Source: Candidatus Sulfomarinibacteraceae bacterium (GTDB lineage: Bacteria > Chloroflexota > Limnocylindria > Limnocylindrales > CSP1-4). Taken from it: DNA of 60,440 nt. A program made the translations under genes and the position numbers. How positions within the stretch are numbered: the stretch's first letter is position 1; each line of letters opens with the position of its first letter. Under the pieces are notes generated by a model that had not been told where the DNA came from, made no database searches, and was given only the letters and a program-made list of their open reading frames with translations. Location of the stretch: positions 1 to 60,440 of the forward strand of contig DATIUS010000052.1 in assembly GCA_035466655.1 (NCBI GenBank), in the 5' to 3' direction. Positions 1,933 through 23,133 of this stretch are shown here, in pieces.

Positions 1933-2159
1933 GACGCGGTGGTGCCTTTCTCGTCGTGGGCGCTGACCGGAGACGGGCGACAGGAGGATACCGGCGAGGT
2001 CGGCGGCCGGCGCCGGGAATCTACCATCCGCCGAAGCGCGCCTGCAAAACGAGGCCGGCGCGCGCACGCACACGATGGGTTGACGGGCTCCCCCGTCGCA
2101 GCTACGCTCCCGGCGGGACGGACGGTCGGAGGAGGATGCCCGACCGGGAAGGACGGAGG

Positions 2160-3356: not shown

Positions 3357-3365
3357 CCTTCCCGG

Positions 3366-6008: not shown

Positions 6009-6087
6009 GTTGCCGATGCTATCGCCCCCCGGGCCCGGGCACCAAAGCCGGGTGGGCCCAGCCGGACCGGATGCTAGACTCGGGCTC

Positions 6088-6618: not shown

Positions 6619-6721
6619 GCCCGCGGCCCGGCCCGACACGCCGTCGTCGCGCCGCCGTGCCGTCCGAACGGGAGCCCACGAAACGCCGCCCCGTGGGAGC
6701 CGCGCGCCCGGACCCCGTGCC

Positions 6722-7294: not shown

Positions 7295-7500
7295 CGCCCG
7301 GGGGGCCTCGCGGGCCCGGTCCCCGGTGTGGACGCCGGGTGGATAACCGCGCCGGATTCCGGGAACTTGGTGGACAGCGGCGGTTGACGCCGCCGTCGAC
7401 CCGGCCGTAGCGTTGTCACCAGCCCGGAGGGGCTGAGCGACACTAACGGCGGCGATCGCATCAACGCCCACGTGTCGGGTAGGTTCCTCCGGGCCTTTCC

Positions 7501-8478: not shown

Positions 8479-8489
8479 CCTTCGGCCTA

Positions 8490-11435
8490 TTGGCAGGATC
8501 TGTGGGGTTCGCAGAATGGGAACCGAACTTCACAAATCCTACCGGGGGACTGGTGATCTCGGGCGCTCTGCTCCGTCCTCGGCCGACCGACGCGACGCTC
8601 ACGGTGACGAAGGCCGCCCACGTGCTGGGTGTCCATCCGAACACGATCCGTGCGTGGAGCGACGCCGGGCGCCTCCGCTACTACCGGATCAACCCTCGCG
8701 GTGACCGGCGCTACCGGCTCGGCGACCTGCGGCGCTTCCTCGTGAGCGCGGCGAACGGGCCGGCCGTCGACGCGGAGCCCCGCGCCGGCACCGACGGGCA
8801 CCGGGCCAGCATCCGGGCGCGGGTCCCGGGGGCTCGACGCCCGGCCGGCGGCCCCGGCCGTGCCGGCCTCGATGTCCTGGCCGGGCTCGGGAAGATCGCC
8901 GCTTCTGTGATCGGGTCGGTGATCGACCCGGAGACCCTGCTCGGATCTGCCGCCCGGGTGATCCGGGAACGAGCCGGCCTGCGCCAGGTCTCCATCTGGC
9001 GGCTGGACGACACCCGCCTCGTGCCGGTCGGCGTCTCGGGGCCGCCCGGTGCTCGCCTCGTGGAGCGGCCACGCCACACGGGCGTCCTTGGCACGGCCCT
9101 CCGCAAACCCGCAGCGGCGGCGCCCGACGCAACCGGCCGCGAGATCGCGGCGGCGATCCCCGGAGCCGATGGGCCATGGGGCGTCCTCCTCGCGACGACG
9201 GAGGGCGACGGGCCGCCGGCTGCGGAGCTGCGCGATCTGGTCATTGCCGCCGCCGAGGCGATCGCGACGATCGTGCGGGCAGCCGGGGCCGCGGCCGAGG
9301 TCACCCACCACCTCCATCGAGCCGAAGCCCTCCAGCGGGTCGCCGGGGACATCGGGAGCCGCCTGGACCTGGACCAGATCCTGGCTGGCCTCGTGGAGCA
9401 CGCGGCCGGCCTGTTCGGCGGCGATCGCGCCGCGGTCCTGGTCACCCAGCCTGACGGCACGCGTCGCGCGGCGGCGTCGCGGGGCCTCTCGGCGGCCTAT
9501 CTCGCGGGGATCGAGAAGGTCACCAACCGAACCCTGGTCGCCTCCGCGCTCGAGGCAGCGGAGCCCGCCTTCTCGGTGAACTTCCGCGACGACCCGCGGG
9601 CCGCCGAGATCCGGGAGGCGGTCATCGAGGAGGGCTTCGACACGCTCTGCGTGGCCCCGCTCTTCGACGGCCCGGATCGTCCGGCGCTTGGCAGCCTGAA
9701 CATCTATCACGATCGTGCGCATCACTGGAGCCGAGACGAGATCGAGACCATGAGCGCGCTCGCGACCCAGGCCTCGGTCGCGATCCAGACGGCCAGGACG
9801 TACGCCCAGCTCGCGACCTGGGCGGCCCAGCTCCAGTCCATCCAGCAGCTCGGGACACGCCTGAGCCGGCTCGCCACGGTCGAGGAGATCGGGACGACGA
9901 TCGCGACGGAGCTTCAGCAGCTGATCGACTACCACAACGTCCGGGTCTACCGCGTCCGGGGGCACGACCTCGTGCCGGTCGCGATGCACGGCCGGATCGG
10001 CCAGTACGACCACGAGACCGCCGAGCAGATCCGGGTCCAGATCGGGACCGGAATCACCGGCTGGGTCGCCGAACACGGCGTGGCCCAGCTGCTCCACGAT
10101 GCGGCGGCCGACCCGCGGGCGGCCACCGTTCCGGGGACGGAGGCCGATCTCGACGAGTCGATGCTCCTCGCACCGATGATCCATGAGGACCAGGTCCTCG
10201 GCGTGCTCGTCCTCTCGAAGCTGGGGCTCCGCCAGTTCCGTGACGACGACCTTCGGCTGCTGGAGATCTACGCCAGCTTCGCCGGGCAGGCCATGGCGAA
10301 CGCCGACGCGACCGAGCGCCTGACTCGTCAATCGGCGACCCTCGAGCGGCAGATCCGGGGCCAGCGCGAGCTTCTCCAGATCACCGAGTCGATCCTGACC
10401 ACGCTCGACGTGCGGCGCATCCTCGAGGCCGTCGCCGATCGGCTCGGGGAGGTGGTCGGCTGGGACAACGTGGCGATCGAGCTGGTCGAAGGGGGCGACG
10501 GCGCGCTGAACCCGATCGTCGCCAAGGGCGCAGACGCCGCGTACTACCTCAAGCCGTGGCAGCCCGGCGAGGAGGGCCTCGCGACGTGGGTCCTCGCGAG
10601 GAACGAGCCGGTCCTGATCGCCGACCAGTACGGGGACCCGCGCGTGGCCCATCCCGACTCGGGGCCGGCCCACGGCAGCCTGATCTGCGTCCCGCTCCGC
10701 GGCCGGGACCGGGCGATCGGCGTGCTCACCCTGGAGCGAATCGGCGAGGGCCGCACGTTCACCGAGGAGGAGTTCGAGCTGGTGAAGCTCTTTGCGGCCC
10801 AGGTGTCGATCGCGATCCAGAACGCACGCGCGCACGGGGCGCTCGCCCGGCGGGCACAGACCGACGACCTGACCGGCCTGGGCAACCACGGCAGCTTCCG
10901 CGAGCGCCTCGCCGCGTCGGTGGTGGATGGGGCGCCGTTCAGCGTCCTGATGATCGATCTCGACGGGTTCAAGCTCGTCAACGACACGTTCGGCCACGCC
11001 GCGGGCAACGACCTCCTGGCCAAGATGGCTGCCGCGATCGTCGGGGCGAGCCGCGACGCCGACGCGGCGTTCCGGTACGGCGGCGACGAGTTCGCCGTGA
11101 TCCTCGCCGGGACGGACGCGGACCGGGCGGGCCCGGTGGCCGAGCGGATCCGCCGGTCCATCTCGCGGCTCGTCGGACGCGGGTCCGGCCTCCATGCCGC
11201 GGGCCTCCGGCTCGACGCCTCGGCCGGCGTCGCGACGTACCCGGTGGACGGATCGACAGCGGACGAAATCCTGCTCGCCGCCGACCGCGCCTGCTTCGTC
11301 GCGAAGCGGAGCGGCGGTGGACGTGTCGCGACCGCCGCCCAGGGACTGACCCTTGCCGGGGCGTTCGCGCTCCAGGTGCCGACCCCGATCGATCCCGCGC
11401 CCGGGGGCGACGCCGAGGCGCCGGCGGTGCTCTGA
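8490..11435 (+). CDS. Multidomain signalling protein: N-terminal MerR/excisionase-type HTH, four GAF domains, C-terminal GGDEF diguanylate cyclase
   Basis: HTH: LTVTKAAHVLGVHPNTIRAWSDAGRLRYYRINPRGDRRYRLGDLRRFL. Four GAF-like blocks each end in an ...SVAIQ(T/N)A-type helix. GGDEF domain: DDLTGLGNHGSF...DLDGFKLVNDTFGHAAGN...RDADAAFRYGGDEFAV, with an RxxD I-site five residues upstream of GGDEF. Start uncertain: TTG 8490 or a GTG about 60 nt downstream. Confidence 0.9.
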   Translation: MAGSVGFAEWEPNFTNPTGGLVISGALLRPRPTDATLTVTKAAHVLGVHPNTIRAWSDAGRLRYYRINPRGDRRYRLGDLRRFLVSAANGPAVDAEPRAGTDGHRASIRARVPGARRPAGGPGRAGLDVLAGLGKIAASVIGSVIDPETLLGSAARVIRERAGLRQVSIWRLDDTRLVPVGVSGPPGARLVERPRHTGVLGTALRKPAAAAPDATGREIAAAIPGADGPWGVLLATTEGDGPPAAELRDLVIAAAEAIATIVRAAGAAAEVTHHLHRAEALQRVAGDIGSRLDLDQILAGLVEHAAGLFGGDRAAVLVTQPDGTRRAAASRGLSAAYLAGIEKVTNRTLVASALEAAEPAFSVNFRDDPRAAEIREAVIEEGFDTLCVAPLFDGPDRPALGSLNIYHDRAHHWSRDEIETMSALATQASVAIQTARTYAQLATWAAQLQSIQQLGTRLSRLATVEEIGTTIATELQQLIDYHNVRVYRVRGHDLVPVAMHGRIGQYDHETAEQIRVQIGTGITGWVAEHGVAQLLHDAAADPRAATVPGTEADLDESMLLAPMIHEDQVLGVLVLSKLGLRQFRDDDLRLLEIYASFAGQAMANADATERLTRQSATLERQIRGQRELLQITESILTTLDVRRILEAVADRLGEVVGWDNVAIELVEGGDGALNPIVAKGADAAYYLKPWQPGEEGLATWVLARNEPVLIADQYGDPRVAHPDSGPAHGSLICVPLRGRDRAIGVLTLERIGEGRTFTEEEFELVKLFAAQVSIAIQNARAHGALARRAQTDDLTGLGNHGSFRERLAASVVDGAPFSVLMIDLDGFKLVNDTFGHAAGNDLLAKMAAAIVGASRDADAAFRYGGDEFAVILAGTDADRAGPVAERIRRSISRLVGRGSGLHAAGLRLDASAGVATYPVDGSTADEILLAADRACFVAKRSGGGRVATAAQGLTLAGAFALQVPTPIDPAPGGDAEAPAVL

Positions 11436-11518: not shown

Positions 11519-12757
11519 ATGGACGATCCCGAGCGCTCCGCGAGGTCCCCTCAGCCCGTGGCCACGTCCGCCGGCAACCCGCTCGCGACGCCGGCGGCGG
11601 CCGGCCTGCTCGCCGTCGTGCTCGTCGCCCTCGTCGGCGCGATCGTCGTGGCGCCAGGCCTCCTGCCGGGTTCGGCATCGGCCACGCCGGGCGGCGGCGC
11701 GGGCGTCTCGGCCGGATCCGCCGGCCCCGGCGGGACGTCGACCCCGGTGGGCTCGCCGGCGGATTCGCCCGGCTCCACCCCGATCCCGAGCTTCGTCCGG
11801 CCCACGCCGACGCCTGAGCCGACGTTCCGGAGCTATACCGTGCGGCCGGGTGACAGCCTCAATTCGATCGCGGACGCCTTCCTCACCTCCGCCCGCAGCC
11901 TCGCCTGGTGGAACCGCGGCACGTACCCGAACCTCGACCCGGAGTCCGAGGCGTACGACCCGGACCACATCGAGCCGGGCTGGGTGCTCGTCCTCATCCC
12001 CCGGGTGGTCGTCGACGACGCCGCGCCACCGACGCCCAGCCCGGGCCCGCCCTCGCCGGTGCCGACCCCGGCGGCGTCGGCCACGCCCTTCGCGACGCCC
12101 TTCGCCACGCCGACCGCCGGCGGCCCGGCGACCGTCATCAGCCACGGGCCCCGCGGCACCGACCAGGTGGCGCTGACCTTCGACATGGGCGGCCGGCTCG
12201 ATCCTGCGCTCGAGATCGTCGGGTGGCTGATCGACCACGAGATCCACGCGACGATCTTCCCGACCGGCAAGGCCGGCACGACCACCGCGGAAGGCCGCGC
12301 CGTGCTCGAGCTGGCCGCCACCCGGCCGGACCTGCTCGATGTGGGCAATCACTCGTGGGACCATCCTGATTTCACGACCCTGACGGCGGCGCAGGTCGCG
12401 GACCAGCTGGGCTCGACCGAGGACGCCGTCCGCGGTCTCGTCGGGACGTCGACGGCGCCCTGGTTCCGGCCGCCGTACGGCGCCTGGACGGAGGTGGTCA
12501 GGGAGCGAGTCGGAGTGGCCGGCTGGTCCCGGCTCGTGCTCTGGGACGTCGACACCATCGACTGGCGGAGCACGGCCGACGGCGGCCCGACCGCCGACGA
12601 CATCGTCACGAAGGTCGTCTCGACGGCGCAGGGCGGCTCGATCGTGCTCATGCACCTGGGCGGCTGGCACACCCTCGAGGCGCTACCCGGCCTGATCGCC
12701 GGCCTCGGCACGCGGCACCTGACGCCGGTGACCCTCGACGAGATGCTCGGCGGCTGA
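11519..12757 (+). CDS. Membrane-anchored LysM domain plus polysaccharide deacetylase (NodB homology) protein
   Basis: TM LLAVVLVALVGAIVVA. LysM: YTVRPGDSLNSIADAF. NodB motifs: ALTFDMG, HSWDHPDF, RPPYG, LMH. Confidence 0.9.
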   Translation: MDDPERSARSPQPVATSAGNPLATPAAAGLLAVVLVALVGAIVVAPGLLPGSASATPGGGAGVSAGSAGPGGTSTPVGSPADSPGSTPIPSFVRPTPTPEPTFRSYTVRPGDSLNSIADAFLTSARSLAWWNRGTYPNLDPESEAYDPDHIEPGWVLVLIPRVVVDDAAPPTPSPGPPSPVPTPAASATPFATPFATPTAGGPATVISHGPRGTDQVALTFDMGGRLDPALEIVGWLIDHEIHATIFPTGKAGTTTAEGRAVLELAATRPDLLDVGNHSWDHPDFTTLTAAQVADQLGSTEDAVRGLVGTSTAPWFRPPYGAWTEVVRERVGVAGWSRLVLWDVDTIDWRSTADGGPTADDIVTKVVSTAQGGSIVLMHLGGWHTLEALPGLIAGLGTRHLTPVTLDEMLGG

Positions 12758-13279
12758 GTCGTCCGCCGGATCGACGGGCGGCGGCCAGACCTTGTCGAAC
12801 CGCTCGAGGACGACCGGCGTCGCCTCGGTCAGGCGCGTGCCCACCGAATCGAAGTACCAGAGGTGACCGCGACACCAGTCGGCGAGGGTGCGGTCACCCT
12901 CCCCCTCATCCCAGGCGAACGCCTCGTCCACCTCGCCGAAGGGCCGGATCTCCACCGAGGCGGTGCGGACGATGCACAGCGGCCGGCCCTCGCCGTCCAG
13001 GATCACGGAGTGATCCCCGGGCCGAGGCATCGGCTCTCCCTCGCCGTAGTCGGCAACGAGCGACGTGGTCGCCCGCTTCGGGCCGTCCCGCACGAGCAGG
13101 CCGAGCTCGGTCATGAGCGCCGGCTTGCCGTCGTCGCCGAACCCCCAGGCCGTGTACGGCCCGGTTGCGCCGGAGGCGGCCGCGTACTCCGCCCAGAACC
13201 GCGCGACGGCGCCGGGATCCTCCTCGGTCACGGCTCGGGGCAGCTCACCGAGGCAGTATCGCGTCGGGGACCCAGACAT
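12683..13279 (-). CDS. ASCH (PUA-like) domain protein
   Basis: AWGFGDD...GPKRATTSL...PFGEVDEAFAWDEGEGDRTLADWCRGH matches the ASCH/YqfB-like pattern. The 5-prime end overlaps ecfT by 35 nt. The 3-prime end overlaps the convergent deacetylase gene by 75 nt. Confidence 0.8.
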   Translation of the reverse strand: MSGSPTRYCLGELPRAVTEEDPGAVARFWAEYAAASGATGPYTAWGFGDDGKPALMTELGLLVRDGPKRATTSLVADYGEGEPMPRPGDHSVILDGEGRPLCIVRTASVEIRPFGEVDEAFAWDEGEGDRTLADWCRGHLWYFDSVGTRLTEATPVVLERFDKVWPPPVDPADDSAAEHLVEGHRRQVPRAEAGDQAG

Positions 13280-14093
13280 CCGAGCTGGTGGTCGTGAAGC
13301 CCGCCACGGTCGCGACGACGAGCATCGTCACCAGCAGCGCCACGACGATCCGGTCGGTCCCGTCGAAGCGGAGCTCGCGGAGCCACGACCGCGGCCCCGT
13401 GCCAAACCCTCGAAGATCCATCGCGTCGATCGTGTCCTCGGCCCCGACGATGGCGTTGATGACGGTGGGTACGAGGATCGGCCCCTGGCGGCGGATCCGG
13501 CCGAAGAAGCCGCCGGCACCGCGGTCCAGCTCCAGGCCCCGGACGCGCTGGGCATCGATCGTCGTCTGCAGGTCGGCGGCAAGGGACGGGACGAACCGGA
13601 AGGTGAGGTCGATCGCGAACGCGAACCGGTCCGGGATCCCGAGGCGCGCGAACGTCACCCCGAAGTCGGCCGGATGCATCGCGAAGGCGAGCGGGAAGCC
13701 GACCGCGGCCATCGCGAGGAACCGGATCAGCTGGGTGAGCGCGTACATCAGCGACTCGGCCGACACGGGCGTCCCGATGAGCGGCAGGTGGAGGTACACG
13801 TGGAGCCGCTCGGACGGGATCCGCGGCACCTGGCCGCCGGCGATGACCCCGTTCACGAGCACGAGGAGCGTCACGAAGAAGATGACGAAGGCCCACTGAC
13901 GGCGCACTGCCCGGAACGGGATCGCAGCGCTCCGGTAGTAGACGAGGGCGATCCCCGCCAGGGCCAGCATCAGCCGCAGGTCCCACACCTGGATGGCGGT
14001 GAACACGAAGCAGACGACGGTGAGGACGAGCAGGCGGGGGTCCCGCCGGGACAGCCAGGACCCCCGCCCGAGGTAGCGCGGCGTGTAGTTCAC
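13245..14093 (-). CDS. ecfT: ECF transporter transmembrane (T) component, EcfT/CbiQ family
   Basis: Polytopic membrane protein with the conserved coupling region A...RVRGLELD (RG motif) and TIDAMDLRGF. GTG start. Confidence 0.85.
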   Translation of the reverse strand: MNYTPRYLGRGSWLSRRDPRLLVLTVVCFVFTAIQVWDLRLMLALAGIALVYYRSAAIPFRAVRRQWAFVIFFVTLLVLVNGVIAGGQVPRIPSERLHVYLHLPLIGTPVSAESLMYALTQLIRFLAMAAVGFPLAFAMHPADFGVTFARLGIPDRFAFAIDLTFRFVPSLAADLQTTIDAQRVRGLELDRGAGGFFGRIRRQGPILVPTVINAIVGAEDTIDAMDLRGFGTGPRSWLRELRFDGTDRIVVALLVTMLVVATVAGFTTTSSDVWVPDAILPR

Positions 14094-14123
14094 GGCCGGA
14101 CGTGACGCCGGGCCGTCGGCCGA

Positions 14124-14690
14124 TCAGCGGCCCATCCGCTCCTTCACCGGCTCCCACGCGTAGGTGAGCACCGGCACCAGGATGATCGTGGAGACGAGGT
14201 TGCCGATGACCACCGGGATGTACTCCGTGGTGATCACGGTGTTGACGTCGTAGCCGCTGAGGGCCATGTCGGTGAAGACGAACAGGAAGCCGACCAGGAC
14301 GCCGACAATGCCGGCGATCGCGCCTGCGATCGCCCGGTTCATCAGGGTGCCGCCCATCATCCCGGCGAGGTACATCGGTGCGAGGCCGGCGATGAGGCCG
14401 ACGAAGCCGTTCGCCAGGCTCCAGTTCCATGACGTGAGGAGACCCCAGCCGGAGATCTGGTCGCCGATCGCGTTCCCGACGAACCCGGTGAAGAAGCCGA
14501 CGATCGGGCCGAACGCGTAGCCGAAGAACGGAACCAGTGCGAAGGCCGGGCGGGCGCTGACGTCCTTCGTGCCGGGCACCGGCACCTGGAGGACGAGCAG
14601 GACCCCATAGAGCGCGGCACCGATGGCCGCGTAGACGATGACGCGCGAGTCGACGCTCCACATCGAGCGTGAGCTGGACATCGAGGACAT
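14124..14690 (-). CDS. ECF transporter substrate-specific (S) component; substrate unknown
   Basis: About 6-TM small membrane protein with Gly-rich helices (FGPIVGFFTGFVGNAIGD). ATG at 14690 is preceded by AAGGAGGGATCGG. It sits between the ecfA and ecfT genes. Confidence 0.8.
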   Translation of the reverse strand: MSSMSSSRSMWSVDSRVIVYAAIGAALYGVLLVLQVPVPGTKDVSARPAFALVPFFGYAFGPIVGFFTGFVGNAIGDQISGWGLLTSWNWSLANGFVGLIAGLAPMYLAGMMGGTLMNRAIAGAIAGIVGVLVGFLFVFTDMALSGYDVNTVITTEYIPVVIGNLVSTIILVPVLTYAWEPVKERMGR

Positions 14691-14730
14691 CCGATCCCTC
14701 CTTGGATACCCCATTTCAACAACGAGACGG

Positions 14731-16434
14731 TCAGCCAGCGCCGACGGCCGATCCTCCTTCCCTCGTGGTGCCGCCGCCCGGGGCGTCCAGGAGGACGCGA
14801 GCGGCAAGCGTCTCAGCGTCGAGGAACCCGCCGTCCTGGCGCGGCCATCGGGCGTTGGCGCGGATCAGCGACGTCGGGCGAAGGTTGCACGCGATCCAGC
14901 GATCGACGTCCTCGACGACAAGTGCGGGCGGGCCGTCGGCGACGACCTGACCGTCCCTGAACAGCAGGATACGGTCTGCGTGCGTCAATGCAAGGTCCAC
15001 GTCGTGGGTCACGAGGTAGATCGAATCGAGGCCCGGGATCGAGAGGACCTCGCGCATGAACCGCCGGGCGGTACGGTGATCCTGCCCGGCCGATGGCTCG
15101 TCGAGGATCAGGGTTGACGGTTCGAGGGCCAGTGCGATCGCCAGGGCGAGTCGCTTCTGCTGTCCGAAGGACAGCGTGAGCGGGGGTCGCTCGAGGATGT
15201 CCTCGAGCATGTCGAGCGAGGTCCGCCGGAGCGCGTCGGCCACGATCCGCTCGAACGTCGCGGGATCGCGTCCGAGGTTCCGCGGGCCGAAGACGAGCTC
15301 TTCGCGGACGGTCCGCGCGAACAGCATCTGGCTTGGGCTCTGGAAGACGTAGCCGAAGACCCCGGCCAGTTGGGCAACCGTCCGGCCCGTGATCGACGAG
15401 CCGTCGACCCGGATCTCCCCCGCGGTCATCGGGAGGAGCCGCATCGCGGCCCGGAACAGGGTCGTCTTGCCCGAGCCGTTCGGGCCGAGCACGGCGACGA
15501 CCTCGCGGCGTCCGAGCCGAGCATCGACGCCGTGGAGCACCTCGTGATCGCCGTAGCCGGCACGTACACCTGCGTACTCGAGTCGCGGGGCGACGTCCGG
15601 GGCTCCCGGTGGGCCGGGCGGGCGGGTCCGGGGCGGCTCCCCGGCCGCCGCGACGGCGAGGGCGGGCTCGGCCCGGTATCGCGCGAGGACGTCGTCGAAC
15701 GGAAGCTTCACGCCGTCCGGATCGGCGATCCGCAGGAACCCGGCGAGGTCGCCGAGGTAGCGCGCCTCCCCCTCCTCGAGGTAGAGCACCCGGTCCGGGC
15801 GGAGGTCGAGCGCCTCCTCGACGCGGTGCTCCACGATCACGATGGCGTGGCCCTCGTCGGCGAGCCCCCGGAGGATCGCGAGCAGGCGGGCGGCGCTCGC
15901 CGGATCGAGGTTGGCCAGGGGCTCGTCCACGACATAGAGCCGCGGTTCGAGCATGAGGATGCCGCCCATCGCCAGGATCTGGCGCTCGCCGCCCGACAGG
16001 GCCGACGTCTCGCGCCCGAGGAGCGGCCGGAGCCCGGCCCGGTCGGCGACGTCCCCGATCCGGCGCCGGATCTCGGTCCGGTGGATGCCCAGGTTCTCCG
16101 GCCCGAAGGCGAGCTCGGCCTCGACCGTCGCGCCGACGATCTGCTTCGCGGGGTCCTGGAGGACGGTGCCGACGAACCGCGAGATGTCGCGGAGCCGCTG
16201 CTCCCCCGTGGACATGCCGCCGACCCGGACGGCCCCGGAGAGCTCGCCCGGATAGGCGTGCGGGATCAGGCCGTTGATGGCCCGGATGAGCGTGCTCTTG
16301 CCACACCCCGATGGGCCGGCCACGAGGAGGACCTCGCCGGGCTCCACGGTGAGGCGGATGTTGCGGATCGCCGGCACGGTCGCCCGTCGGTAGCGGAAGG
16401 TCAGGTCATCGACCTCGACGATGTGCTCCGCCAC
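14731..16434 (-). CDS. ecfA: Fused double ABC ATPase of an ECF transporter (EcfA1-EcfA2 type)
   Basis: Two Walker A motifs (GPSGCGKST, GPNGSGKTT), two signature motifs (LSGGERQ, LSFGQQKR) and two Walker B motifs (LYVVDEP, TLILDEP). Confidence 0.92.
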   Translation of the reverse strand: MAEHIVEVDDLTFRYRRATVPAIRNIRLTVEPGEVLLVAGPSGCGKSTLIRAINGLIPHAYPGELSGAVRVGGMSTGEQRLRDISRFVGTVLQDPAKQIVGATVEAELAFGPENLGIHRTEIRRRIGDVADRAGLRPLLGRETSALSGGERQILAMGGILMLEPRLYVVDEPLANLDPASAARLLAILRGLADEGHAIVIVEHRVEEALDLRPDRVLYLEEGEARYLGDLAGFLRIADPDGVKLPFDDVLARYRAEPALAVAAAGEPPRTRPPGPPGAPDVAPRLEYAGVRAGYGDHEVLHGVDARLGRREVVAVLGPNGSGKTTLFRAAMRLLPMTAGEIRVDGSSITGRTVAQLAGVFGYVFQSPSQMLFARTVREELVFGPRNLGRDPATFERIVADALRRTSLDMLEDILERPPLTLSFGQQKRLALAIALALEPSTLILDEPSAGQDHRTARRFMREVLSIPGLDSIYLVTHDVDLALTHADRILLFRDGQVVADGPPALVVEDVDRWIACNLRPTSLIRANARWPRQDGGFLDAETLAARVLLDAPGGGTTREGGSAVGAG

Positions 16435-16456
16435 GGGCCCGTTGCGCCTCGTCCGG

Positions 16457-17284
16457 TCAGGCGGCGCGGATGCGCACCGGGCGGTCGAGCGCGAGGCCCA
16501 GCCGCTCCGCCGCGTTGCCCTGGTTATCCGCGAGCGAGAGATTCCCTTCGGAATCCTCCATCAGGAGCGAGGCACCCAGCGGAACGCTGCCGAACGTCCG
16601 CTCCCAGACCGTCGTCTCAACGACCGCGGGGCGCCCGTCGTGGGCGGGGAACTCCACGATGACCCGCCGCCCGGGGGTGAGCGGCCCGATCGCGGCCTCC
16701 AGGTCCGCAGTGGTGCCCGCGAAGGTGACGTTGCCGAAGATGAGGACGTGGGTGATCCGGCTCTCGAGCTCGCCCTCGCGGATCGTCGGGGTCGGGAGGT
16801 CGAGGCGGACGAGCGTCGCCGGATCGATCGCCGGGCCGACCGCCTCGAACGGCGACCCCATCGCCAGGTGCGCGGCAATCGGCGCGAAGACGTCGCGGCC
16901 GTGGAAGCTGCTCGTCACAACGGGCAGCATGAAAGCCCGGTTCTCGAGCGCGCGCGCCGCGACGATCCCGCCGAGCCGCTCGGCGGCGGGCAGGAGGAGC
17001 CCGTTGTCCGGCCCCAGGAGCATGTCGCCCCGGACGACCTTGAGCGCGATCCCCCGGCGGTCCGTCCCCACGCCGGGGTCCACGACAGCGACGTGAACAC
17101 CGATCGGCATGTACGGGAGGGCGAAGACCAGCGTACCGGCGCCCTCGCGGATCGCGTACCGCCGCACCTGGTGGCTGATGTCGATGATCAGCGCATCGGG
17201 TGCAATCCCGTACATGACGCCCCGACAGACCGCCGGGGCGGCCGGCCCGAAATCCGTGGTGAAGGTGATGACCGGGCGGGACAT
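16457..17284 (-). CDS. DUF62-family S-adenosyl-L-methionine hydrolase (SAM:hydroxide adenosyltransferase-like), paralog B
   Basis: ITFTTDFG, VVDPGVGTDRRGIAL, GPDNGLL, SSFHGRDVFAP and FGNV. The internal ATG at 17284 was chosen. Track ORF 16457..18442 reads through antisense or out-of-frame sequence. Confidence 0.88.
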   Translation of the reverse strand: MSRPVITFTTDFGPAAPAVCRGVMYGIAPDALIIDISHQVRRYAIREGAGTLVFALPYMPIGVHVAVVDPGVGTDRRGIALKVVRGDMLLGPDNGLLLPAAERLGGIVAARALENRAFMLPVVTSSFHGRDVFAPIAAHLAMGSPFEAVGPAIDPATLVRLDLPTPTIREGELESRITHVLIFGNVTFAGTTADLEAAIGPLTPGRRVIVEFPAHDGRPAVVETTVWERTFGSVPLGASLLMEDSEGNLSLADNQGNAAERLGLALDRPVRIRAA

Positions 17285-17292
17285 GGCGCTCC

Positions 17293-18123
17293 TCAGGTGG
17301 GCCGGACCCGAACGGAGCGCCCGGCGGTGATATCGAGCCGCGCCGCCGCATCGCCCTGGTTGTCCGCGATCGCAAGCTGCCCGAACGAGTTCTCGTAGAC
17401 GAGCGGTGCACCCGGCGGACGCTCCCCGAACGTCCGGGCCCAGGGCATGACCTGGGCAATCGCGGGCCGGCCCTCGTGGGGCGCGAACTCGACGCTGAGC
17501 GCCCGGCCGGGCGTGAGCGGGCCGATGGCGGCCTCGAGATCGGCTCGCTCGCCGGCCAGCCGGACGTTGCCGAAGGAATCCACGAACAGCACCGTCGTAT
17601 CGAGGCCGCCGTCCACCTCGACCGGGGCCGGGAACTCGAGGGCGACGAGGTTCGCCGGGGCGATGCTCGGACCGACCTCCTCGAAGGCACGCCCCGTGGC
17701 GAGGTGGCCGGCCATCGGCGCGAAGACGTCCCGACCGTGGAAGGTGGAGGTGGTCCGCGGCAGCATCATGGCTTGGTTGTCGAGGATTCGGGCCTCGGTG
17801 ATCCCTCCGAGCGCGGCCGCGGCCGGCATGAGGACCCCGTTGTCCGGGCCGATGAGGATGTCGCCGCGGGCCACCCGGAGACCGATCGGCAGCCGCGTCG
17901 TCCCGACTCCGGGATCCACGACCGTGACGTGCACCCCCACCGGCAGCCACGGGACCGCGGACCAGAGGAGGTACGCGCCGTCGCCGATCGCGAACTTCCG
18001 GACGCCGTGGCTGATGTCGATGATCTGAGCGTCGCGGGCGATCGACAGCATCACCCCGCGGCAGATGGCAGGCGCGGATTCCGGGCCGAAGTCGGTGAGG
18101 AAGCTGATGACGGGCCGGTCCAT
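17293..18123 (-). CDS. DUF62-family S-adenosyl-L-methionine hydrolase (SAM:hydroxide adenosyltransferase-like), paralog A
   Basis: ISFLTDFG, VVDPGVGTTR, GPDNGVL, STFHGRDVFAP and FGNV. ATG at 18123 (MDRPVISF). Confidence 0.88.
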   Translation of the reverse strand: MDRPVISFLTDFGPESAPAICRGVMLSIARDAQIIDISHGVRKFAIGDGAYLLWSAVPWLPVGVHVTVVDPGVGTTRLPIGLRVARGDILIGPDNGVLMPAAAALGGITEARILDNQAMMLPRTTSTFHGRDVFAPMAGHLATGRAFEEVGPSIAPANLVALEFPAPVEVDGGLDTTVLFVDSFGNVRLAGERADLEAAIGPLTPGRALSVEFAPHEGRPAIAQVMPWARTFGERPPGAPLVYENSFGQLAIADNQGDAAARLDITAGRSVRVRPT

Positions 18124-18230
18124 GGGCCGCGATGGTACAGAAGCGCCAAGGGAGCGAGCGCCCGGAATCGGCAATGGCGCCGGAAAGCGGCGGCGGACGC
18201 CCGCCCCGGCACACGTGCGCGGCCTGGAAT

Positions 18231-18267
18231 CCGAAGCGGCGCCCGGAGGAGGAGGGCGCCGCTTCGG
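18231..18267 (-). terminator. Strong GC-rich hairpin (14-bp perfect stem, 9-nt loop) between the small ORF and the DUF62 operon
   Basis: ccgaagcggcgccc / ggaggagga / gggcgccgcttcgg. It lies 55 nt downstream of the minus-strand ORF ending at 18322. On the minus-strand RNA it is followed by AUUCC. There is no long U tract. Confidence 0.45.
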
Positions 18268-18321
18268 AGGGTGGTTGCCGGCCCGCGGAGGAGGGCCACT
18301 GGCCGGCGAATGTGGTCGGGG

Positions 18322-18579
18322 CTACGTCGAGGCCGCCCCCGTCGGGATGGCCGGGATCGCCAGGCCGTCGTCCGCGCCGAGTCGGCCGGTTCGGCACAGG
18401 TCCCGGAGGAAGAGGAGCCGATCGATGTCCGCCAGGCGCCACGGGCGCCCCTGTCCCACCTCGATCCCCGCCATGTAGGCGGTCAGGTTCGCGGCCTCAC
18501 CGGGCGTGAACCCACGGACGAGCAGCGAGCGGTAGGTCGCTCGAGTCGTGAAGCCGTGGTCCGGGTCCTGCGTGGCCAT
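18322..18579 (-). CDS. Small conserved-looking hypothetical protein (85 aa)
   Basis: Third codon positions are almost all G/C by my own codon-by-codon reading. ATG at 18579. Sequence MATQDPDHGFTTRATYRSLLVRGFTPGEAANLTAYMAGIEV...LLFLRDLCRTGRL. Only the C-terminal part of track ORF 18322..18861 is used. Confidence 0.6.
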   Translation of the reverse strand: MATQDPDHGFTTRATYRSLLVRGFTPGEAANLTAYMAGIEVGQGRPWRLADIDRLLFLRDLCRTGRLGADDGLAIPAIPTGAAST

Positions 18580-18778
18580 CGGTGGAGCCCTGTCGATCCT
18601 CTGTGCTGCCGTAGCCGGGGCCGTCCCGGTCGGTTCGGTGGCGTCATGGTCGGACGATGGTCCCTGACCGGCGATGACCCGACGGTCCCGGTCGACCCGG
18701 TACTTCCGGCGGCCGCTGCACGACGGGGTCGGCGTTGTCGCCGCGGTCGTCCGGGTATGCTCGGCGCCAGGAGGCGAG

Positions 18779-19789
18779 ATGGGCGAGTTCCGCGAGGATG
18801 GGGGCTCCAGCGCGAAGCGAGACCGCGGCGCGCGGCTGCTCCGCGTCGCGAACCTCCTCAAGGCGCATCCCGACGGGATCCGCGCCGAGGAGATCGCCGA
18901 GCGGCTCGGGATCTCGCGCCGAACGGCCTACCGTGACCTCGTCGCGCTCGAAGGCGAGCTGGAGATGCCGACCTGGTCGGAGGACGGGCGCTGGGGGATG
19001 CTCGACGCGGCGTTCCTCCCGCCGCTCAAGCTCACGACGTCGGAGGCGATGGCCGTCTTCCTCGCCGCGCGGCTCATGGTCCGCTACGCCGACAAGTACG
19101 ACCCGGACCTCGCCTCGGCCTTCGAGAAGCTCACCGAGGGCCTCCCGGCGGCGCTGACCGAGCACGTCAACCGCTCGCTCGACGTGCTCCAGCGCGCCAG
19201 GCGCGATCCCGCCTTCGTCGAACACGTCCACGCCCTCACCCGCGCCTGGGCGGAACGCCGGGTCGTCGAGATCGACTACGCCGCCGCGCGCTACGAGGGC
19301 CGTCCCGGGACCGCGCGACGGGCGACCGTCCGTCCGTACCTCATCGAGCCGTCGACCCAGACCCATGCGCTCTACCTGATCGGGTTCGACGAGGGCCGGG
19401 ACGGGCTCCGGACGTTCAAGATCGAGCGGATCCGGTCCGTGGCCGTCACGCCGCGCCGCTTCGAGCCGCCCGAGCCGGGCACGGTGGAGACGATGCTCCG
19501 GCAGGCCTGGGACATCATCGCGGACCAGCCGTCGACGGAGATCGAGCTGCGGTTCGTGCCGGCGGTCGCCGGCCGGGTCGCGGAGACGATCTGGCACCCG
19601 ACGCAGCGCCTCGAGCCGCGGGCCGATGGCTCGCTCGTCTGGCGGGCCACCGTCAGCGGGACGATCGAGGTCCGGCTGTGGGTCCTGTCCTGGGGGGACG
19701 AGGTGGAGGTCCTCGCGCCAGCCTCGCTCCGCGACGATGTCCGCGCGACCCACGCTCGGGCGCTCGCGAAGCTCGGACCCGAGCGCTGA
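18779..19789 (+). CDS. HTH-WYL-WCX transcriptional regulator (PafBC/YafY-like)
   Basis: wHTH: RLLRVANLLKAHPDGIRAEEIAERLGISRRTAYRDLVALE. WYL-type core: VVEIDYAA...VRPYLIEPSTQTHALYLIGFDEGRDGLRTFKIERI. C-terminal extension domain. ATG at 18779 follows AGGAGG. Confidence 0.88.
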   Translation: MGEFREDGGSSAKRDRGARLLRVANLLKAHPDGIRAEEIAERLGISRRTAYRDLVALEGELEMPTWSEDGRWGMLDAAFLPPLKLTTSEAMAVFLAARLMVRYADKYDPDLASAFEKLTEGLPAALTEHVNRSLDVLQRARRDPAFVEHVHALTRAWAERRVVEIDYAAARYEGRPGTARRATVRPYLIEPSTQTHALYLIGFDEGRDGLRTFKIERIRSVAVTPRRFEPPEPGTVETMLRQAWDIIADQPSTEIELRFVPAVAGRVAETIWHPTQRLEPRADGSLVWRATVSGTIEVRLWVLSWGDEVEVLAPASLRDDVRATHARALAKLGPER

Positions 19790-19792
19790 GCG

Positions 19793-21241
19793 ATGCCCCG
19801 CCCAGCGCATCATCCGTTCTCGGCGGTCAACCTGATCAGCGATCCGATCCACGGCTACGTCGAGCTGACGAAGCGCCTGGCGCCGGACGAGGCGGCCGTG
19901 GCCGGGCTGGCGCCCGAGGATGCCGCCGAGGACGACCTGCTCGACACGGCGTGGGTCCAGCGGCTCCGGCGAATCAGCCAGCTCCAGAGCGCCCGCTGGG
20001 TCTTCCCGACGGCCGAGCACTCGCGGTTCACGCACGGCCTCGGCGTCATGCACGAAGCCGGACTCTGGGCGAGATCCCTCTACCCCACGCTCCGGGCCGT
20101 GCTCGCCGCCCGATCGGCGGGCGCGGCTGGCGACGCGGGTGACCGGAAACCGTCCGAGCCGATCCCGTCCGAGGGTCTCGTCGTCGAGACCCTCCGTGTC
20201 GCCGGGCTCCTCCACGATGTCGGGCACGGCCCGTTCGCCCACTACTTCGACGACCGGTTCCTCGCGGCGCTGCCGGCCCCACCGGATTCCCGGCGTCCCG
20301 GCGTGAAGTCTCTGTCACACGAGGACCTGAGCCAGCTGATCATCGAGCGGGAGCTGGCCCCGGTCATCGGCGCCCTCCGCCGCGCGCCGGGGAATGCCCC
20401 TGCGCGCGACTCGTTCGCGACCGGCGAGGCGATCGACCCGCGCTGGGTCTCGTTCATCGTCTCGAAGCCGGCGCTGGCCGACCCCTCGATGCCGCGCTGG
20501 GTGCGGCTCCTCCAGCCGCTCCTGTCAGGCGTCTTCACGGTCGACAACCTCGACTACGTCCGGCGAGACGCGCACTTCACCGGCGTCCAGGTCGGGATCG
20601 ACGCCGAGCGCCTCCGCCGCTACGCGTTCATGGGCGAACGGGGGCTCACGCTCTACGAGTCGGGCGTGCCGGCGCTCGAGGGGTTCCTCGGCGCGCGGCT
20701 GCTCCTGTACCAGCAGGTCTACTTCCACCGGACGGTCCGGGCGATCGACCTCGATCTCGCGGAGGTGTTCGCGCCGTCGATCCTGGCGATCTTCGGCGAC
20801 CGCTCGCCGGTCGACCGCCTCGGCGACTATGCCGACCTCGACGAGTACGCGCTCCTCCACCAGGCCGCCCGCTGGTCGCGCGGCGAGGACATCGCGGCCC
20901 CCGGGACGGCCCGGGCGGGCGACGGCCGGGTCGAGCGGACCGTCGCCGACGGATGGCGGGGGATCCTCCTTCGGCGGCCACGGTGGCGAGTGGACGGCGA
21001 GGTCCGGGCGGAGTTCGAGGCCGGCGCGTTCCCCGACGCCGTGGTCGCGACGCTCGGTGCGGCCGAGCCGGGGCGGGTGGCGATCGACCTTGCCCTGGTG
21101 GACGCCCGGCTGCCGGACGTCGAGGCCGCCGGCCGGCTCACGATCCAGCGACGGGATGGCTCGGTGCCGGCGCTGTCCGAGGCGCTCCCGAGGATTCCGG
21201 GCTATGCGCTGATCGCCCGGCGGTATCGCCGAACCGATTGA
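19793..21241 (+). CDS. HD-domain phosphohydrolase of the SAMHD1/dNTP triphosphohydrolase-like family
   Basis: HSRFTHGLGVMH, LLHDVGHGPFAHYFD and DNLDYVRRDAHFTGV. It starts 4 nt after the WYL gene stop. Confidence 0.85.
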   Translation: MPRPAHHPFSAVNLISDPIHGYVELTKRLAPDEAAVAGLAPEDAAEDDLLDTAWVQRLRRISQLQSARWVFPTAEHSRFTHGLGVMHEAGLWARSLYPTLRAVLAARSAGAAGDAGDRKPSEPIPSEGLVVETLRVAGLLHDVGHGPFAHYFDDRFLAALPAPPDSRRPGVKSLSHEDLSQLIIERELAPVIGALRRAPGNAPARDSFATGEAIDPRWVSFIVSKPALADPSMPRWVRLLQPLLSGVFTVDNLDYVRRDAHFTGVQVGIDAERLRRYAFMGERGLTLYESGVPALEGFLGARLLLYQQVYFHRTVRAIDLDLAEVFAPSILAIFGDRSPVDRLGDYADLDEYALLHQAARWSRGEDIAAPGTARAGDGRVERTVADGWRGILLRRPRWRVDGEVRAEFEAGAFPDAVVATLGAAEPGRVAIDLALVDARLPDVEAAGRLTIQRRDGSVPALSEALPRIPGYALIARRYRRTD

Positions 21242-23056: not shown

Positions 23057-23133
23057 GCGCCCGTAGCTCAGCGGACCAGAGCATGTGGCTTCGGACCACA
23101 GGGTCGGGGGTTCGAATCCCTCCGGGCGCGCCA
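23057..23133 (+). tRNA. tRNA-Arg, anticodon UCG, with encoded CCA
   Basis: Hand-folded cloverleaf. Acceptor GCGCCCG/CGGGCGC; D stem GCTC/GAGC; anticodon stem TGTGG/CCACA with loop CT-TCG-GA; T arm GGGGG-TTCGAAT-CCCTC; discriminator G; CCA at 23131..23133. Confidence 0.9.

What the first reader, a model, noticed from the sequence alone, without database searches (positions are those of the whole stretch)
13245..18123. Two tandem DUF62 SAM-hydrolase paralogs lead an ECF transporter operon that ends in an ASCH-domain gene
The minus-strand order is DUF62-A (17293..18123), DUF62-B (16457..17284), fused EcfA1A2, an S component, EcfT, then an ASCH protein that overlaps ecfT by 35 nt. Gaps are 8, 22, 40 and 30 nt.

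Both DUF62 copies keep the residues I recall as the Asp-Arg-His triad of SAM:hydroxide adenosyltransferases (DPGVGTxR and FHGRD). These are not the halide-pocket residues of fluorinase or chlorinase. Their N-terminal motif CRGVM(Y/L) nevertheless looks closer to the halogenase CKG(V/L)MY than to the usual archaeal DUF62 motif.

The physiological role of DUF62 enzymes is unresolved. Coupling two paralogs (possibly a heterotrimer, since active sites sit at subunit interfaces) to a vitamin-type ECF importer suggests a salvage route. The S component would import SAM or a 5-prime-substituted adenosine-like compound, which would be cleaved intracellularly to adenosine plus methionine or an analogue. 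The ASCH protein has a PUA-like fold known to act on or bind modified nucleosides and might process a co-product.
Basis: partly seen in the sequence, partly recalled or inferred. Interest (0 to 1): 0.7.

Follow-up and report, generated by a model that had tools for sequence, protein, structure and literature searches.

The report
SAM-hydrolase genes coupled to ECF importer
Two neighbouring copies of an enzyme that splits the cofactor SAM into adenosine and methionine sit in one operon with a dedicated vitamin-type (ECF) importer of unknown cargo; the pairing is conserved across two bacterial phyla, which gives a testable clue to what both the enzyme and the transporter do in the cell.

Summary
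On the minus strand lie DUF62-A (17293-18123), DUF62-B (16457-17284), a fused EcfA1A2, a 188-aa S component, EcfT and an ASCH gene. The gaps and the 35-nt overlap are exactly as stated. Both DUF62 copies keep the Asp-Arg-His triad of SAM hydrolases, not the halogenase residues.

The DUF62-ECF link is not local chance. DUF62 lies directly upstream of ecfA in 35/35 Limnocylindria genome loci, 3/4 Anaerolineae loci and 29/42 Anaerolineae-type metagenome loci. It also sits next to a 28-32% identical S component in Sphaerochaeta (Spirochaetota), with a different gene order.

Actinomycetota orthologues lack DUF62. All 28 instead carry a COG0402-type deaminase straight after ecfT. Its nearest solved relatives deaminate 5'-substituted adenosines, among other purines.

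The S component has the ECF S fold but matches no characterised specificity.

The tandem duplication is variable: there are three paralogue types, most loci have one copy, and some second copies are decaying. ASCH occurs in only 3 loci.

Best reading: a dedicated importer for SAM or a related 5'-substituted adenosine, with intracellular cleavage by DUF62. This is inferred, not shown. The obligatory-heterotrimer and ASCH ideas are not supported. I found no description of this coupling in the papers I could read.

The parts
17293..18123 (-). DUF62-A, a SAM hydroxide adenosyltransferase / (R)-SAM hydrolase family protein (276 aa), 'A-type' paralogue
   Evidence: Pfam PF01887 (148 bits) and PF20257 (57 bits). 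Triad D70/R77/H129. NJ clade A.
16457..17284 (-). DUF62-B, second copy (275 aa), 61% identical to A. 'B-type' paralogue, the type present in most related loci.
   Evidence: Pfam, BLASTP, triad kept, clade B. SD-like GAGGAG upstream.
14731..16434 (-). Fused EcfA1-EcfA2 ATPase (567 aa)
   Evidence: Two ABC_tran domains. TIGR04520 at 319 bits (cut-off 315) and TIGR04521 at 312 bits (cut-off 330).
14124..14690 (-). ECF S component (188 aa), PF07155 type, specificity unknown
   Evidence: PF07155 at 77 bits. NF010182 at 77 bits, below its cut-off of 99. AF2 model pLDDT 83. The Foldseek top 24 hits are all ECF S components. No sequence match to solved S components beyond E about 0.004. Strong SD AAGGAGG upstream.
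13245..14093 (-). EcfT transmembrane component (282 aa)
   Evidence: PF02361 CbiQ at 75 bits. Conserved after S in all related loci.
12683..13279 (-). ASCH-domain protein (198 aa), a sporadic accessory gene overlapping ecfT by 35 nt
   Evidence: PF04266 at 56 bits. PDB 1t62 at E 8e-20. Present only in L007 and L041 among the related loci.
18132..18137 (-). Conserved TACCAT (-10-like, TAnnAT) 8 nt upstream of the DUF62-A ATG, with no SD. Suggests a promoter for a leaderless operon mRNA (inference).
   Evidence: (G)TAC(C/T)ATC is conserved 7-9 nt before the first DUF62 start in nearly all Limnocylindria loci.
18231..18307 (-). Two conserved hairpins (18277-18307 and 18231-18267) with CCUCCUCC-type loops, lying between the small ORF and the operon
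   Evidence: Fold gives -55.5 kcal/mol, z = -7.0. Hairpin 2 has 14 pairs, 6 with compensatory changes, and an invariant loop. One copy per locus in 28 loci and one in the window. It stays with the small ORF in L017.
18322..18579 (-). Conserved small ORF (85 aa) upstream of the operon, with no family match
   Evidence: tblastn finds it (43-81% identity) upstream of DUF62 in most Limnocylindria loci. Genes of 82-88 aa are called there in L001/L003/L004. No Pfam hit.
18674..19789 (+). Divergent HTH-WYL-WCX regulator. It is a conserved neighbour and a candidate regulator of the operon (inference only).
   Evidence: Pfam. Conserved on the opposite strand upstream in nearly all Limnocylindria loci.

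Best explanation
The core is a conserved four-gene module: DUF62, EcfA1A2, a PF07155-type S component and EcfT. It is a dedicated (group-I) ECF importer transcribed together with the cytoplasmic enzyme that processes its cargo.

Proposed mechanism:
1. The S component binds an extracellular adenosine-5'-substituted metabolite. The most likely cargo is S-adenosylmethionine, which outside cells is a mixture of the active (S,S) and inactive (R,S) sulfonium epimers.
2. EcfT and EcfA1A2 drive uptake with ATP.
3. Inside the cell, DUF62 uses its Asp-Arg-His triad to activate water for SN2 attack on C5'. This releases adenosine and L-methionine. It salvages both halves and removes the (R,S) epimer.

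Shown: gene identities, the intact catalytic triad in both copies, operon-like spacing, and conservation of the pairing across Chloroflexota classes and in Spirochaetota. Inferred: the cargo, the direction of the metabolic link, and co-transcription.

The second DUF62 copy is a lineage-variable duplicate, possibly differing in epimer or analogue preference. It is not an obligatory partner. ASCH is a recent add-on.
For: 1. DUF62 lies directly upstream of ecfA (median gap 47 nt) in 35/35 assessable Limnocylindria genome loci and 3/4 Anaerolineae loci. It does so in 29/42 Anaerolineae-type metagenome loci, where S, EcfA, EcfT and DUF62 are the only recurrent genes.
2. The link survives rearrangement. 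In Sphaerochaeta globosa (CP002541) and two related contigs the order is DUF62, then S, then a fused EcfA1A2T. The S component there is only 28-32% identical to the window's.
3. In 28/28 Actinomycetota orthologous ECF loci, DUF62 is absent. A COG0402 amidohydrolase follows ecfT directly. Its best solved relatives include DR_0824, MTA/SAH deaminases (4dyk, 4f0r) and aminofutalosine deaminase (7lkj). These enzymes act on 5'-substituted adenosines (the DR_0824 activity is recalled from memory).
4. Both DUF62 copies, and 56/56 intact homologues, keep the triad that defines SAM hydrolases (PMC10491745, PMC4859513).
5. The S component has the ECF S fold but no assignable vitamin specificity.
6. Residues invariant between the window S and the distant UPF0397-type S include Y28, D77, W90 and D141. 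These would suit a cationic ligand. This is a weak inference, because pocket location was not checked.
Against: - No SAM or other riboswitch lies upstream in the window or in 11 related loci, and no methionine or SAM genes occur in the 60-kb window. Nothing but adjacency links the transporter to SAM.
- PF07155 also holds PdxU and PdxU2/HmpT, which are vitamin B6 transporters (PMC9997740). The lowest-rmsd structural match is HmpT 4hzu (rmsd 3.7, TM-score 0.68 normalised to the target, 16% identity).
- 13/42 Anaerolineae-type loci, Vibrio, and all Actinomycetota loci lack DUF62.
- DUF62 enzymes are slow in vitro, and one group doubts that (R,S)-SAM hydrolysis is their physiological role (PMC12120602).
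- COG0402 deaminases also act on guanine, 8-oxoguanine, pterins and triazines. No equivalog threshold was reached.
Confidence: 0.4

Rival explanations
1. The transporter imports a different adenosine-type or purine compound, such as MTA, SAH, 5'-deoxyadenosine, aminofutalosine-like nucleosides, or an unknown sulfonium or 5'-modified adenosine. DUF62 cleaves that compound, or a SAM analogue, rather than SAM itself.
For: The Actinomycetota orthologues carry a deaminase whose solved relatives act on MTA, SAH and aminofutalosine. PMC12120602 argues that some DUF62 enzymes may have another, unknown physiological substrate. Three paralogue types exist, with few type-specific positions: 42, 43 and 45, plus 127 next to the catalytic His.
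Against: The only activity ever shown for triad-bearing DUF62 enzymes is SAM hydrolysis (PMC10491745; bioRxiv 10.1101/2025.08.29.672840). MTA, SAH and 5'-dA lack a good leaving group for SN2 at C5'. All 69 family-invariant positions are the same in the three paralogue types.
Confidence: 0.2
2. The ECF module is an ordinary vitamin importer, for a B6 vitamer or riboflavin as the Pfam and NCBI names suggest. DUF62 is a housekeeping (R,S)-SAM repair enzyme that merely shares a promoter with it, with no metabolic link between cargo and enzyme.
For: PF07155 contains PdxU and PdxU2/HmpT (PMC9997740). NCBI names the sister family PRK13661 an 'ECF-type riboflavin transporter'. The top Foldseek hit by E-value is TmRibU and the lowest rmsd is HmpT. 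Many homologous ECF modules have no DUF62.
Against: The adjacency is kept across S components only about 30% identical, across two phyla, and through gene-order change and gene fusion. That is hard to explain without selection for co-expression. The window S scores below the PRK13661 cut-off (77 vs 99 bits). Profiles of the family match RibU, FolT and HmpT only at E 0.004-0.04 or not at all. No FMN or other riboswitch is present.
Confidence: 0.2
3. Corrinoid-related reading. The module takes up an adenosylated corrinoid, and DUF62 removes the 5'-deoxyadenosyl upper ligand by attack at C5'. This would be the reverse chemistry of the cobalamin adenosyltransferases.
For: In Sphaerochaeta (L166, L168) the DUF62-S-EcfA1A2T genes directly follow cobT, cobU, cobS and a HAD phosphatase on the same strand. 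In L169 a His_Phos_1 (CobC-family) gene follows.
Against: No cob genes lie near the module in any Chloroflexota or Actinomycetota locus. No cobalamin riboswitch was found in L166 or elsewhere. The S component shows no similarity to CbrT or BtuM-type proteins in the PDB searches. No such activity is known for DUF62.
Confidence: 0.04
4. One reading: the two paralogues form an obligatory heterotrimer, and the ASCH protein processes a nucleoside co-product of the imported compound.
For: Active sites of this family lie at subunit interfaces (PMC4859513). At least 10 of 35 Limnocylindria loci have tandem pairs. ASCH overlaps ecfT by 35 nt in the window and overlaps it similarly in L007. Its solved relatives are ASCH proteins.
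Against: Single-copy loci are the majority, and each of the A, B and C types occurs alone. Pair composition varies (A+B, B+C, A'+C). A 62-aa remnant (L002) and frameshifted copies (L021, L073) show loss of the second copy. ASCH is absent from the closest relative L006 and from all but two other loci.
Confidence: 0.08

Closest known systems
DUF62 / SAM hydroxide adenosyltransferases, i.e. (R)-S-adenosyl-L-methionine hydrolases (PH0463, TTHA0338, StDUF62, SaciSAMH)
   Same: Both Pfam domains and the Asp-Arg-His triad are present. The TDFG, PDNG and FGN motifs are conserved. Lengths are 275-276 aa.
   Different: The copies score far below the NCBIfam equivalog cut-offs (142-145 vs 350 bits). By sequence they are closer to the SalL chlorinase clade than to the Thermotoga or archaeal enzymes. 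They occur in tandem, in up to three paralogue types, and are embedded in a transporter operon. That context is not mentioned in the DUF62 papers I could read.
SalL chlorinase / FlA fluorinase (SAM-dependent halogenases)
   Same: Same fold family. SalL is the best PDB hit (E 7e-37) and shares the C(K/R)GVM N-terminal motif.
   Different: The halide-pocket residues are absent. SalL has Y/T/Y where these proteins have D/R/H. The fluorinase model scores 64 bits against a cut-off of 400.
Group-I (dedicated) ECF transporters with a fused EcfA1A2, such as YkoEDC, and the orphan or predicted systems MtsTUV (TCDB 3.A.1.29, 'methionine precursor') and HtsTUV (3.A.1.31, unknown substrate)
   Same: Architecture: one S component, a duplicated ATPase in one polypeptide and a T component, all in one operon. 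TCDB lists Mts and Hts as ECF families with a methionine-related and an unknown substrate respectively (PMC3654945).
   Different: I could not obtain reference sequences, so identity with Mts or Hts is untested. The S-box riboswitch control that I recall for Mts is absent here. Rodionov et al. 2009 was not readable.
PF07155 S components: UPF0397/PRK13661 ('ECF-type riboflavin transporter'), PdxU, PdxU2/HmpT
   Same: Same Pfam family (77 bits). Shared motif RPA..FFG..FGP.VGF..GF.GN...D and the six-helix S fold. UPF0397-type members in Sphaerochaeta also sit next to DUF62.
   Different: Below the PRK13661 cut-off (77 vs 99 bits). Identity to PRK13661 members is 28-32%. The match to HmpT (4hzu) is only E 0.043 with 16% identity. 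Substrate specificity cannot be transferred.
Transporter-plus-catabolic-enzyme salvage operons, e.g. nucleoside or vitamin-precursor uptake coupled to a hydrolase
   Same: The logic of an importer co-transcribed with the first intracellular processing enzyme, and swapping of the enzyme partner between lineages (DUF62 vs COG0402 deaminase).
   Different: I know of no ECF-type SAM importer that has been described. The known bacterial SAM carriers in Rickettsia and Chlamydia belong to another transporter family. Both statements are from memory, not tested.

Membership tests
DUF62 / SAM hydroxide adenosyltransferase (PF01887 + PF20257) | N- and C-terminal domains above the Pfam gathering scores | tested here: met
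   A scores 148 and 57 bits, B scores 145 and 40 bits, against cut-offs of 26.3 and 25.5.
DUF62 / SAM hydroxide adenosyltransferase | Conserved Asp-Arg-His triad (D68/R75/H127 in PH0463; PMC4859513, PMC10491745) | tested here: met
   D70/R77/H129 in A and the equivalent residues in B. DRH is kept in 56/56 intact homologues from related loci.
(R)-S-adenosyl-L-methionine hydrolase equivalogs (NCBIfam NF058624, NF053629) | Score above the curated equivalog cut-off | tested here: not met
   142 and 145 bits vs 350, and 103 and 107 bits vs 470. They are family members but not equivalogs of the characterised enzymes.
(R)-S-adenosyl-L-methionine hydrolase | Hydrolysis of SAM to adenosine + methionine with (R,S) selectivity; homotrimer | not testable with these tools
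   Needs enzyme assays with both epimers and oligomer analysis.
SAM-dependent halogenases (SalL, FlA) | Halide-pocket residues (Y70/G131 in SalL; T80/S158 in FlA) and absence of the triad | tested here: not met
   D/R/H stand at the columns where SalL and 7ccg have Y/T/Y. TIGR04507 scores 64 and 59 bits against a cut-off of 400.
ECF transporter, dedicated (group I) module | EcfA ATPase pair, EcfT and an S component encoded together | tested here: met
   Two ABC_tran domains. TIGR04520 scores 319 bits (cut-off 315) and TIGR04521 scores 312 bits (cut-off 330, just below). CbiQ scores 75 bits. S hits PF07155. Gaps are 40 and 30 nt.
ECF S component fold | Six-helix S-component fold | tested here: met
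   AF2 model with pLDDT 83 and pTM 0.80. The Foldseek PDB top 24 are all ECF S components, with TM 0.5-0.68.
RibU / PRK13661 'ECF-type riboflavin transporter S component' | Score above the NF010182 cut-off, or detectable similarity to solved RibU | tested here: not met
   77 bits vs a cut-off of 99. No PDB hit for the single sequence. RibU at E 0.009 with profile A1, and no hits at all with profile A4.
PdxU / PdxU2 (HmpT) vitamin B6 S components | Specific similarity to HmpT (4hzu) beyond shared Pfam membership | tested here: inconclusive
   Same Pfam family according to PMC9997740. 4hzu_S at E 0.043. Foldseek TM 0.61/0.68, rmsd 3.7, 16% identity.
MtsTUV / HtsTUV (TCDB 3.A.1.29 / 3.A.1.31) | Orthology of S to MtsT or HtsT; S-box riboswitch control (Mts; recalled from memory) | tested here: inconclusive
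   No reference sequences were available, so orthology is untested. No SAM riboswitch in the window or in 11 related loci.
ASCH domain (PF04266) | Domain above the gathering score | tested here: met
   56 bits vs 21.2. PDB 1t62 at E 8e-20 and 3s9x at E 9e-14.
ASCH as part of the DUF62-ECF module | Conserved presence next to the module | tested here: not met
   Found only in the window, L007 and L041. It is absent from L006 (S 91% identical) and from all other loci.

The most novel reading that the evidence does not exclude
The PF07155/UPF0397-like S components linked to DUF62 are the first ECF-type importers of S-adenosylmethionine. DUF62 is their epimer-proofreading partner. Environmental SAM arrives partly racemised, the (S,S) form is used directly as cofactor, and the (R,S) form is hydrolysed to adenosine and methionine. 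The A, B and C paralogues differ in epimer or analogue preference. This would give DUF62 a physiological context (processing of imported, not only endogenous, damaged SAM). It would also assign a substrate to a widespread orphan ECF family, with the Actinomycetota variant deaminating the same or a related adenosyl compound.
Probability: 0.2. Interest if true: 0.75.

Novelty: new variant of a known kind. Interest (0 to 1): 0.55.

Why it matters
DUF62 enzymes occur throughout bacteria and archaea, yet their cellular role is still debated: (R,S)-SAM repair versus an unknown function. The PF07155/UPF0397-type ECF S components are mostly orphans that carry a nominal 'riboflavin' label. A gene pairing conserved across phyla ties the two problems together and turns both into simple experiments: ligand binding and uptake for one small membrane protein, and epimer-resolved SAM hydrolysis for two soluble enzymes. 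If the cargo is SAM, this would be a new route of cofactor scavenging in abundant soil and freshwater Chloroflexota. It would also correct a widespread annotation. If the cargo is a vitamin, the finding reduces to an unexplained but ordinary co-transcription.

Tried and rejected
- Riboswitch control. Rfam at gathering threshold on the window, at E-value threshold on the leader, and on 11 related loci gave nothing except tRNAs and weak CcsR1/Scr3202-like hits.
- Sequence assignment of the S component to a solved S component. The single sequence gave no hit. Profile A1 gave only FolT at E 0.004 and RibU at E 0.009. Profile A4 gave nothing.
- The first genome scan with the 35-sequence alignment failed because it had no conserved stretch. 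It was repeated with 11 sequences.
- Other recurrent neighbours. All-vs-all ORF clustering in 85 loci found only S, EcfA, EcfT and DUF62. Loci lacking DUF62 have unrelated neighbours: saccharopine-dehydrogenase-like, MFS, luciferase-like, and a frameshifted PALP gene in L082.
- Met/SAM genes elsewhere in the window: none found.
- Paralogue-specific catalytic differences. Only positions 42, 43, 45, 127 and 246 differ consistently, and all 69 invariant positions are shared. There is no evidence for a dead or regulatory subunit.
- Literature. Rodionov 2009, Kornfuehrer 2020, Eustaquio 2008 and Deng 2009 are not held. Searches for DUF62 + ECF, COG1912, UPF0397 and Hts/Mts gave no paper describing the coupling. 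So 'not described' means not found in the accessible library.
- Simple promoter/terminator consensus scan: nothing useful in this 72% GC DNA.
- Halogenase reading: rejected on the triad columns.

Full report
**Source and observation.** The window is about 72% G+C. Its closest relatives are MAGs labelled Candidatus Limnocylindrales, phylum Chloroflexota. Their family assignments are confirmed by Pfam and NCBIfam:
- two full-length DUF62 proteins (SAM_HAT_N + SAM_HAT_C);
- a fused EcfA1A2 with two ABC domains (TIGR04520 at 319 bits vs a cut-off of 315);
- a 188-aa S component of Pfam family PF07155, whose start at 14690 is supported by the lengths of about 120 homologues;
- EcfT (CbiQ);
- an ASCH protein.

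**The DUF62 copies are hydrolase-type.** The two copies are 61% identical. Both carry the Asp-Arg-His triad that distinguishes SAM hydrolases from the halogenases (PMC10491745; PMC4859513). SalL and the chlorinase-like 7ccg have Tyr/Thr/Tyr in those columns. SalL is the best PDB hit (E 7e-37). In a small NJ tree SalL and 7ccg sit next to the Limnocylindria DUF62 clade, not with the Thermotoga enzyme. This reflects relatedness, not halogenase chemistry.

**Is the DUF62-ECF adjacency more than chance?** I collected 80 genome loci with homologues of the S component and 80 metagenome loci of a more distant branch, about 40% identical, whose cluster is named Anaerolineaceae. I located the window's proteins in them by tblastn and counted:
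- Limnocylindria genome loci: DUF62 lies directly upstream of ecfA, same strand, median gap 47 nt, in 35 of 35 assessable loci.
- Anaerolineae genome loci: 3 of 4, with DUF62 only 36-40% identical.
- Anaerolineae-type metagenome loci: 29 of 42. An all-against-all ORF clustering found S, EcfA, EcfT and DUF62 to be the only recurrent genes there.
- Spirochaetota: in Sphaerochaeta globosa (CP002541) and two related contigs the order is DUF62, then S, then a fused EcfA1A2T polypeptide. The S component there is of the UPF0397/PRK13661 type and 28-32% identical to the window's.

An association that survives this much sequence divergence, a change of gene order and a gene fusion is good evidence for a functional link. 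A Vibrio member of the same S family has no DUF62.

**An independent clue from Actinomycetota.** The orthologous ECF operons of Sphaerisporangium, Streptosporangium, Microtetraspora and Rathayibacter (S 44-49% identical) never have DUF62 within 7 kb (0/28). All 28 have an Amidohydro_1 gene starting at or overlapping the ecfT stop. It belongs to the COG0402 deaminase group. It reaches no NCBIfam equivalog cut-off. Its best solved relatives are DR_0824, 3hpa, 4dyk, 4gbd, the MTA/SAH deaminase 4f0r and the aminofutalosine deaminase 7lkj. Many of these act on 5'-substituted adenosines; others act on 8-oxoguanine or guanine. So two different partner enzymes, in two phyla, both point towards an adenosine- or purine-type cargo.

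**What the S component is.** It is not a recognisable RibU, FolT, ThiT, BioY, PanT or CbrT.
- The single sequence has no PDB match.
- A 35-sequence profile reaches only FolT (E 0.004), RibU (E 0.009) and HmpT (E 0.043).
- A second profile that includes UPF0397 proteins finds nothing.
- An AlphaFold model (pLDDT 83) matches ECF S components in all of the top 24 Foldseek hits. TM-scores are similar and modest, and identity is at most 20%.
- It scores below the NCBIfam PRK13661 cut-off (77 vs 99 bits).

PF07155 is heterogeneous. According to PMC9997740 it also contains the vitamin B6 components PdxU and PdxU2/HmpT. The 'riboflavin' label is therefore nominal. A vitamin cargo cannot be excluded, but it is not supported either. 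Neither half is met.

**The duplication.** A tree of 56 DUF62 genes from these loci shows three paralogue types, A, B and C.
- B is present almost everywhere.
- Tandem pairs are A+B (the window, L004, L006, L007, L041), B+C (L009, L015-18, L025, L043) or other combinations (L019, L040).
- Most loci have one copy, and each type can be the only copy.
- L002 keeps a 62-aa remnant, and L021 and L073 have disrupted copies.
- All 69 positions invariant in the family, including the triad and the substrate-binding motifs, are the same in the three types. Only five positions differ consistently.

So both window copies are predicted to be competent enzymes. An obligatory heterotrimer is unlikely. Mixed trimers or divergent epimer or analogue preference remain possible but cannot be tested here.

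**ASCH.** The protein is a genuine ASCH domain, with 1t62 at E 8e-20. The gene is found after ecfT only in the window, L007 and L041. It is missing from L006, whose S component is 91% identical. It is best regarded as a recent accessory or hitch-hiker.

**Regulation and surroundings.**
- No known riboswitch precedes the operon, here or in relatives.
- A conserved TACCAT lies 8 nt before the DUF62-A ATG, and there is no Shine-Dalgarno sequence. Internal genes do have them: GAGGAG before DUF62-B and AAGGAGG before S. This suggests a promoter giving a leaderless mRNA, which is an inference.
- Upstream lie a conserved 85-aa ORF without family and two very stable hairpins with CCUCCUCC-type loops. 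The fold has z = -7.0. Hairpin 2 has 14 pairs, six of them with compensatory changes.
- The hairpin motif occurs once per locus. In L017 it stays with the small ORF rather than with DUF62.
- A divergent HTH-WYL-WCX regulator and an HD-domain protein are conserved neighbours.
- Nothing else in the 60-kb window concerns methionine or SAM.

**Interpretation.** The best-supported reading is a dedicated ECF importer whose cargo is processed by the co-encoded enzyme. The most economical candidate for the DUF62-linked modules is SAM, including its inactive (R,S) epimer, cleaved to adenosine and methionine. I put this at about 0.4. Another adenosyl compound gets about 0.2. An unrelated vitamin importer with a co-transcribed housekeeping DUF62 also gets about 0.2. 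A corrinoid-related reading, suggested only by the cob genes next to the Sphaerochaeta module, is a long shot.

All parts belong to known families, and transporter-enzyme coupling is a familiar logic. I therefore rate it as a new variant of a known kind. The papers on DUF62 that I could read do not mention a transporter context.

Noticed in passing
window 18231-18307 (-) and 18322-18579 (-): A conserved 85-aa ORF with no family match is followed by two stable hairpins whose loops read CCUCCUCC (anti-Shine-Dalgarno-like). The fold has z = -7.0. Hairpin 2 has 6 of 14 pairs with compensatory changes and an invariant loop. The motif occurs once per locus in 28 Limnocylindria loci and once in the window. 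It gives weak Rfam hits to CcsR1 (RF02791) and Scr3202. It resembles the Rhodobacter arrangement of a small ORF followed by CcsR 'CCUCCUCCC' RNAs (recalled from memory). In L017 the hairpins stay with the small ORF, about 900 nt from DUF62.
   Followed up: partly
window 18132-18137 (-): A conserved TAC(C/T)AT lies 7-9 nt upstream of the first DUF62 start codon in nearly all Limnocylindria loci, with no SD sequence. It is a likely -10 box of a leaderless transcript.
   Followed up: partly
L047-L084 (Actinomycetota loci), e.g. L071 8368-9684 (+): Orthologous ecfA1A2-S-ecfT operons in Sphaerisporangium, Streptosporangium, Microtetraspora and Rathayibacter lack DUF62. All 28 carry a COG0402-type amidohydrolase directly after ecfT. 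Its best PDB relatives are DR_0824, MTA/SAH deaminases and aminofutalosine deaminase.
   Followed up: partly
L166 (Sphaerochaeta globosa CP002541) 988-9240; L168; L169: DUF62, a UPF0397-type S component and a single fused EcfA1A2-EcfT polypeptide (870-878 aa) lie in a row. In L166 and L168 they lie directly downstream of cobT, an AP_endonuc_2 gene, cobU, cobS and a HAD phosphatase. In L169 a His_Phos_1 (CobC-family) gene follows.
   Followed up: no
L002 6014-6202; L021 3532-5199; L073 4372-5268: A 62-aa remnant and frameshifted or degenerate second DUF62 copies indicate ongoing loss of the duplicate in some Limnocylindria lineages.
   Followed up: partly
window 18674-21241 (+): A divergently transcribed HTH-WYL-WCX regulator followed by an HD-domain protein (HD + HD_assoc_2). 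Both are conserved in this position in nearly all Limnocylindria loci. Some relatives have a CAP-domain gene between them. In L003 the gene caller merged WYL, CAP and HD into one 699-aa product, where tblastn shows broken reading frames.
   Followed up: no
window 12683-12757: The 3' end of the ASCH gene (-) overlaps by 75 nt the 3' end of the convergent LysM-polysaccharide deacetylase gene (11519-12757, +). In relatives lacking ASCH the deacetylase or LysM gene directly follows ecfT.
   Followed up: no
L082 4174-5207 (+): In the one Anaerolineae genome locus without DUF62 (Ca. Villigracilis vicinus), a PALP-family gene (the fold type that includes cysteine synthases) split into two ORFs lies upstream of ecfA.
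   Followed up: no
window 23057-23130 (+): A tRNA gene (Rfam 66 bits) is the only Rfam match at gathering threshold in the window.
   Followed up: no
window 8490-11435 (+): A large HTH-GAF-GAF-GAF-GGDEF protein (981 aa) is conserved near the module in Limnocylindria relatives (981-aa and 972-aa products in L001, L002 and L004).
   Followed up: no
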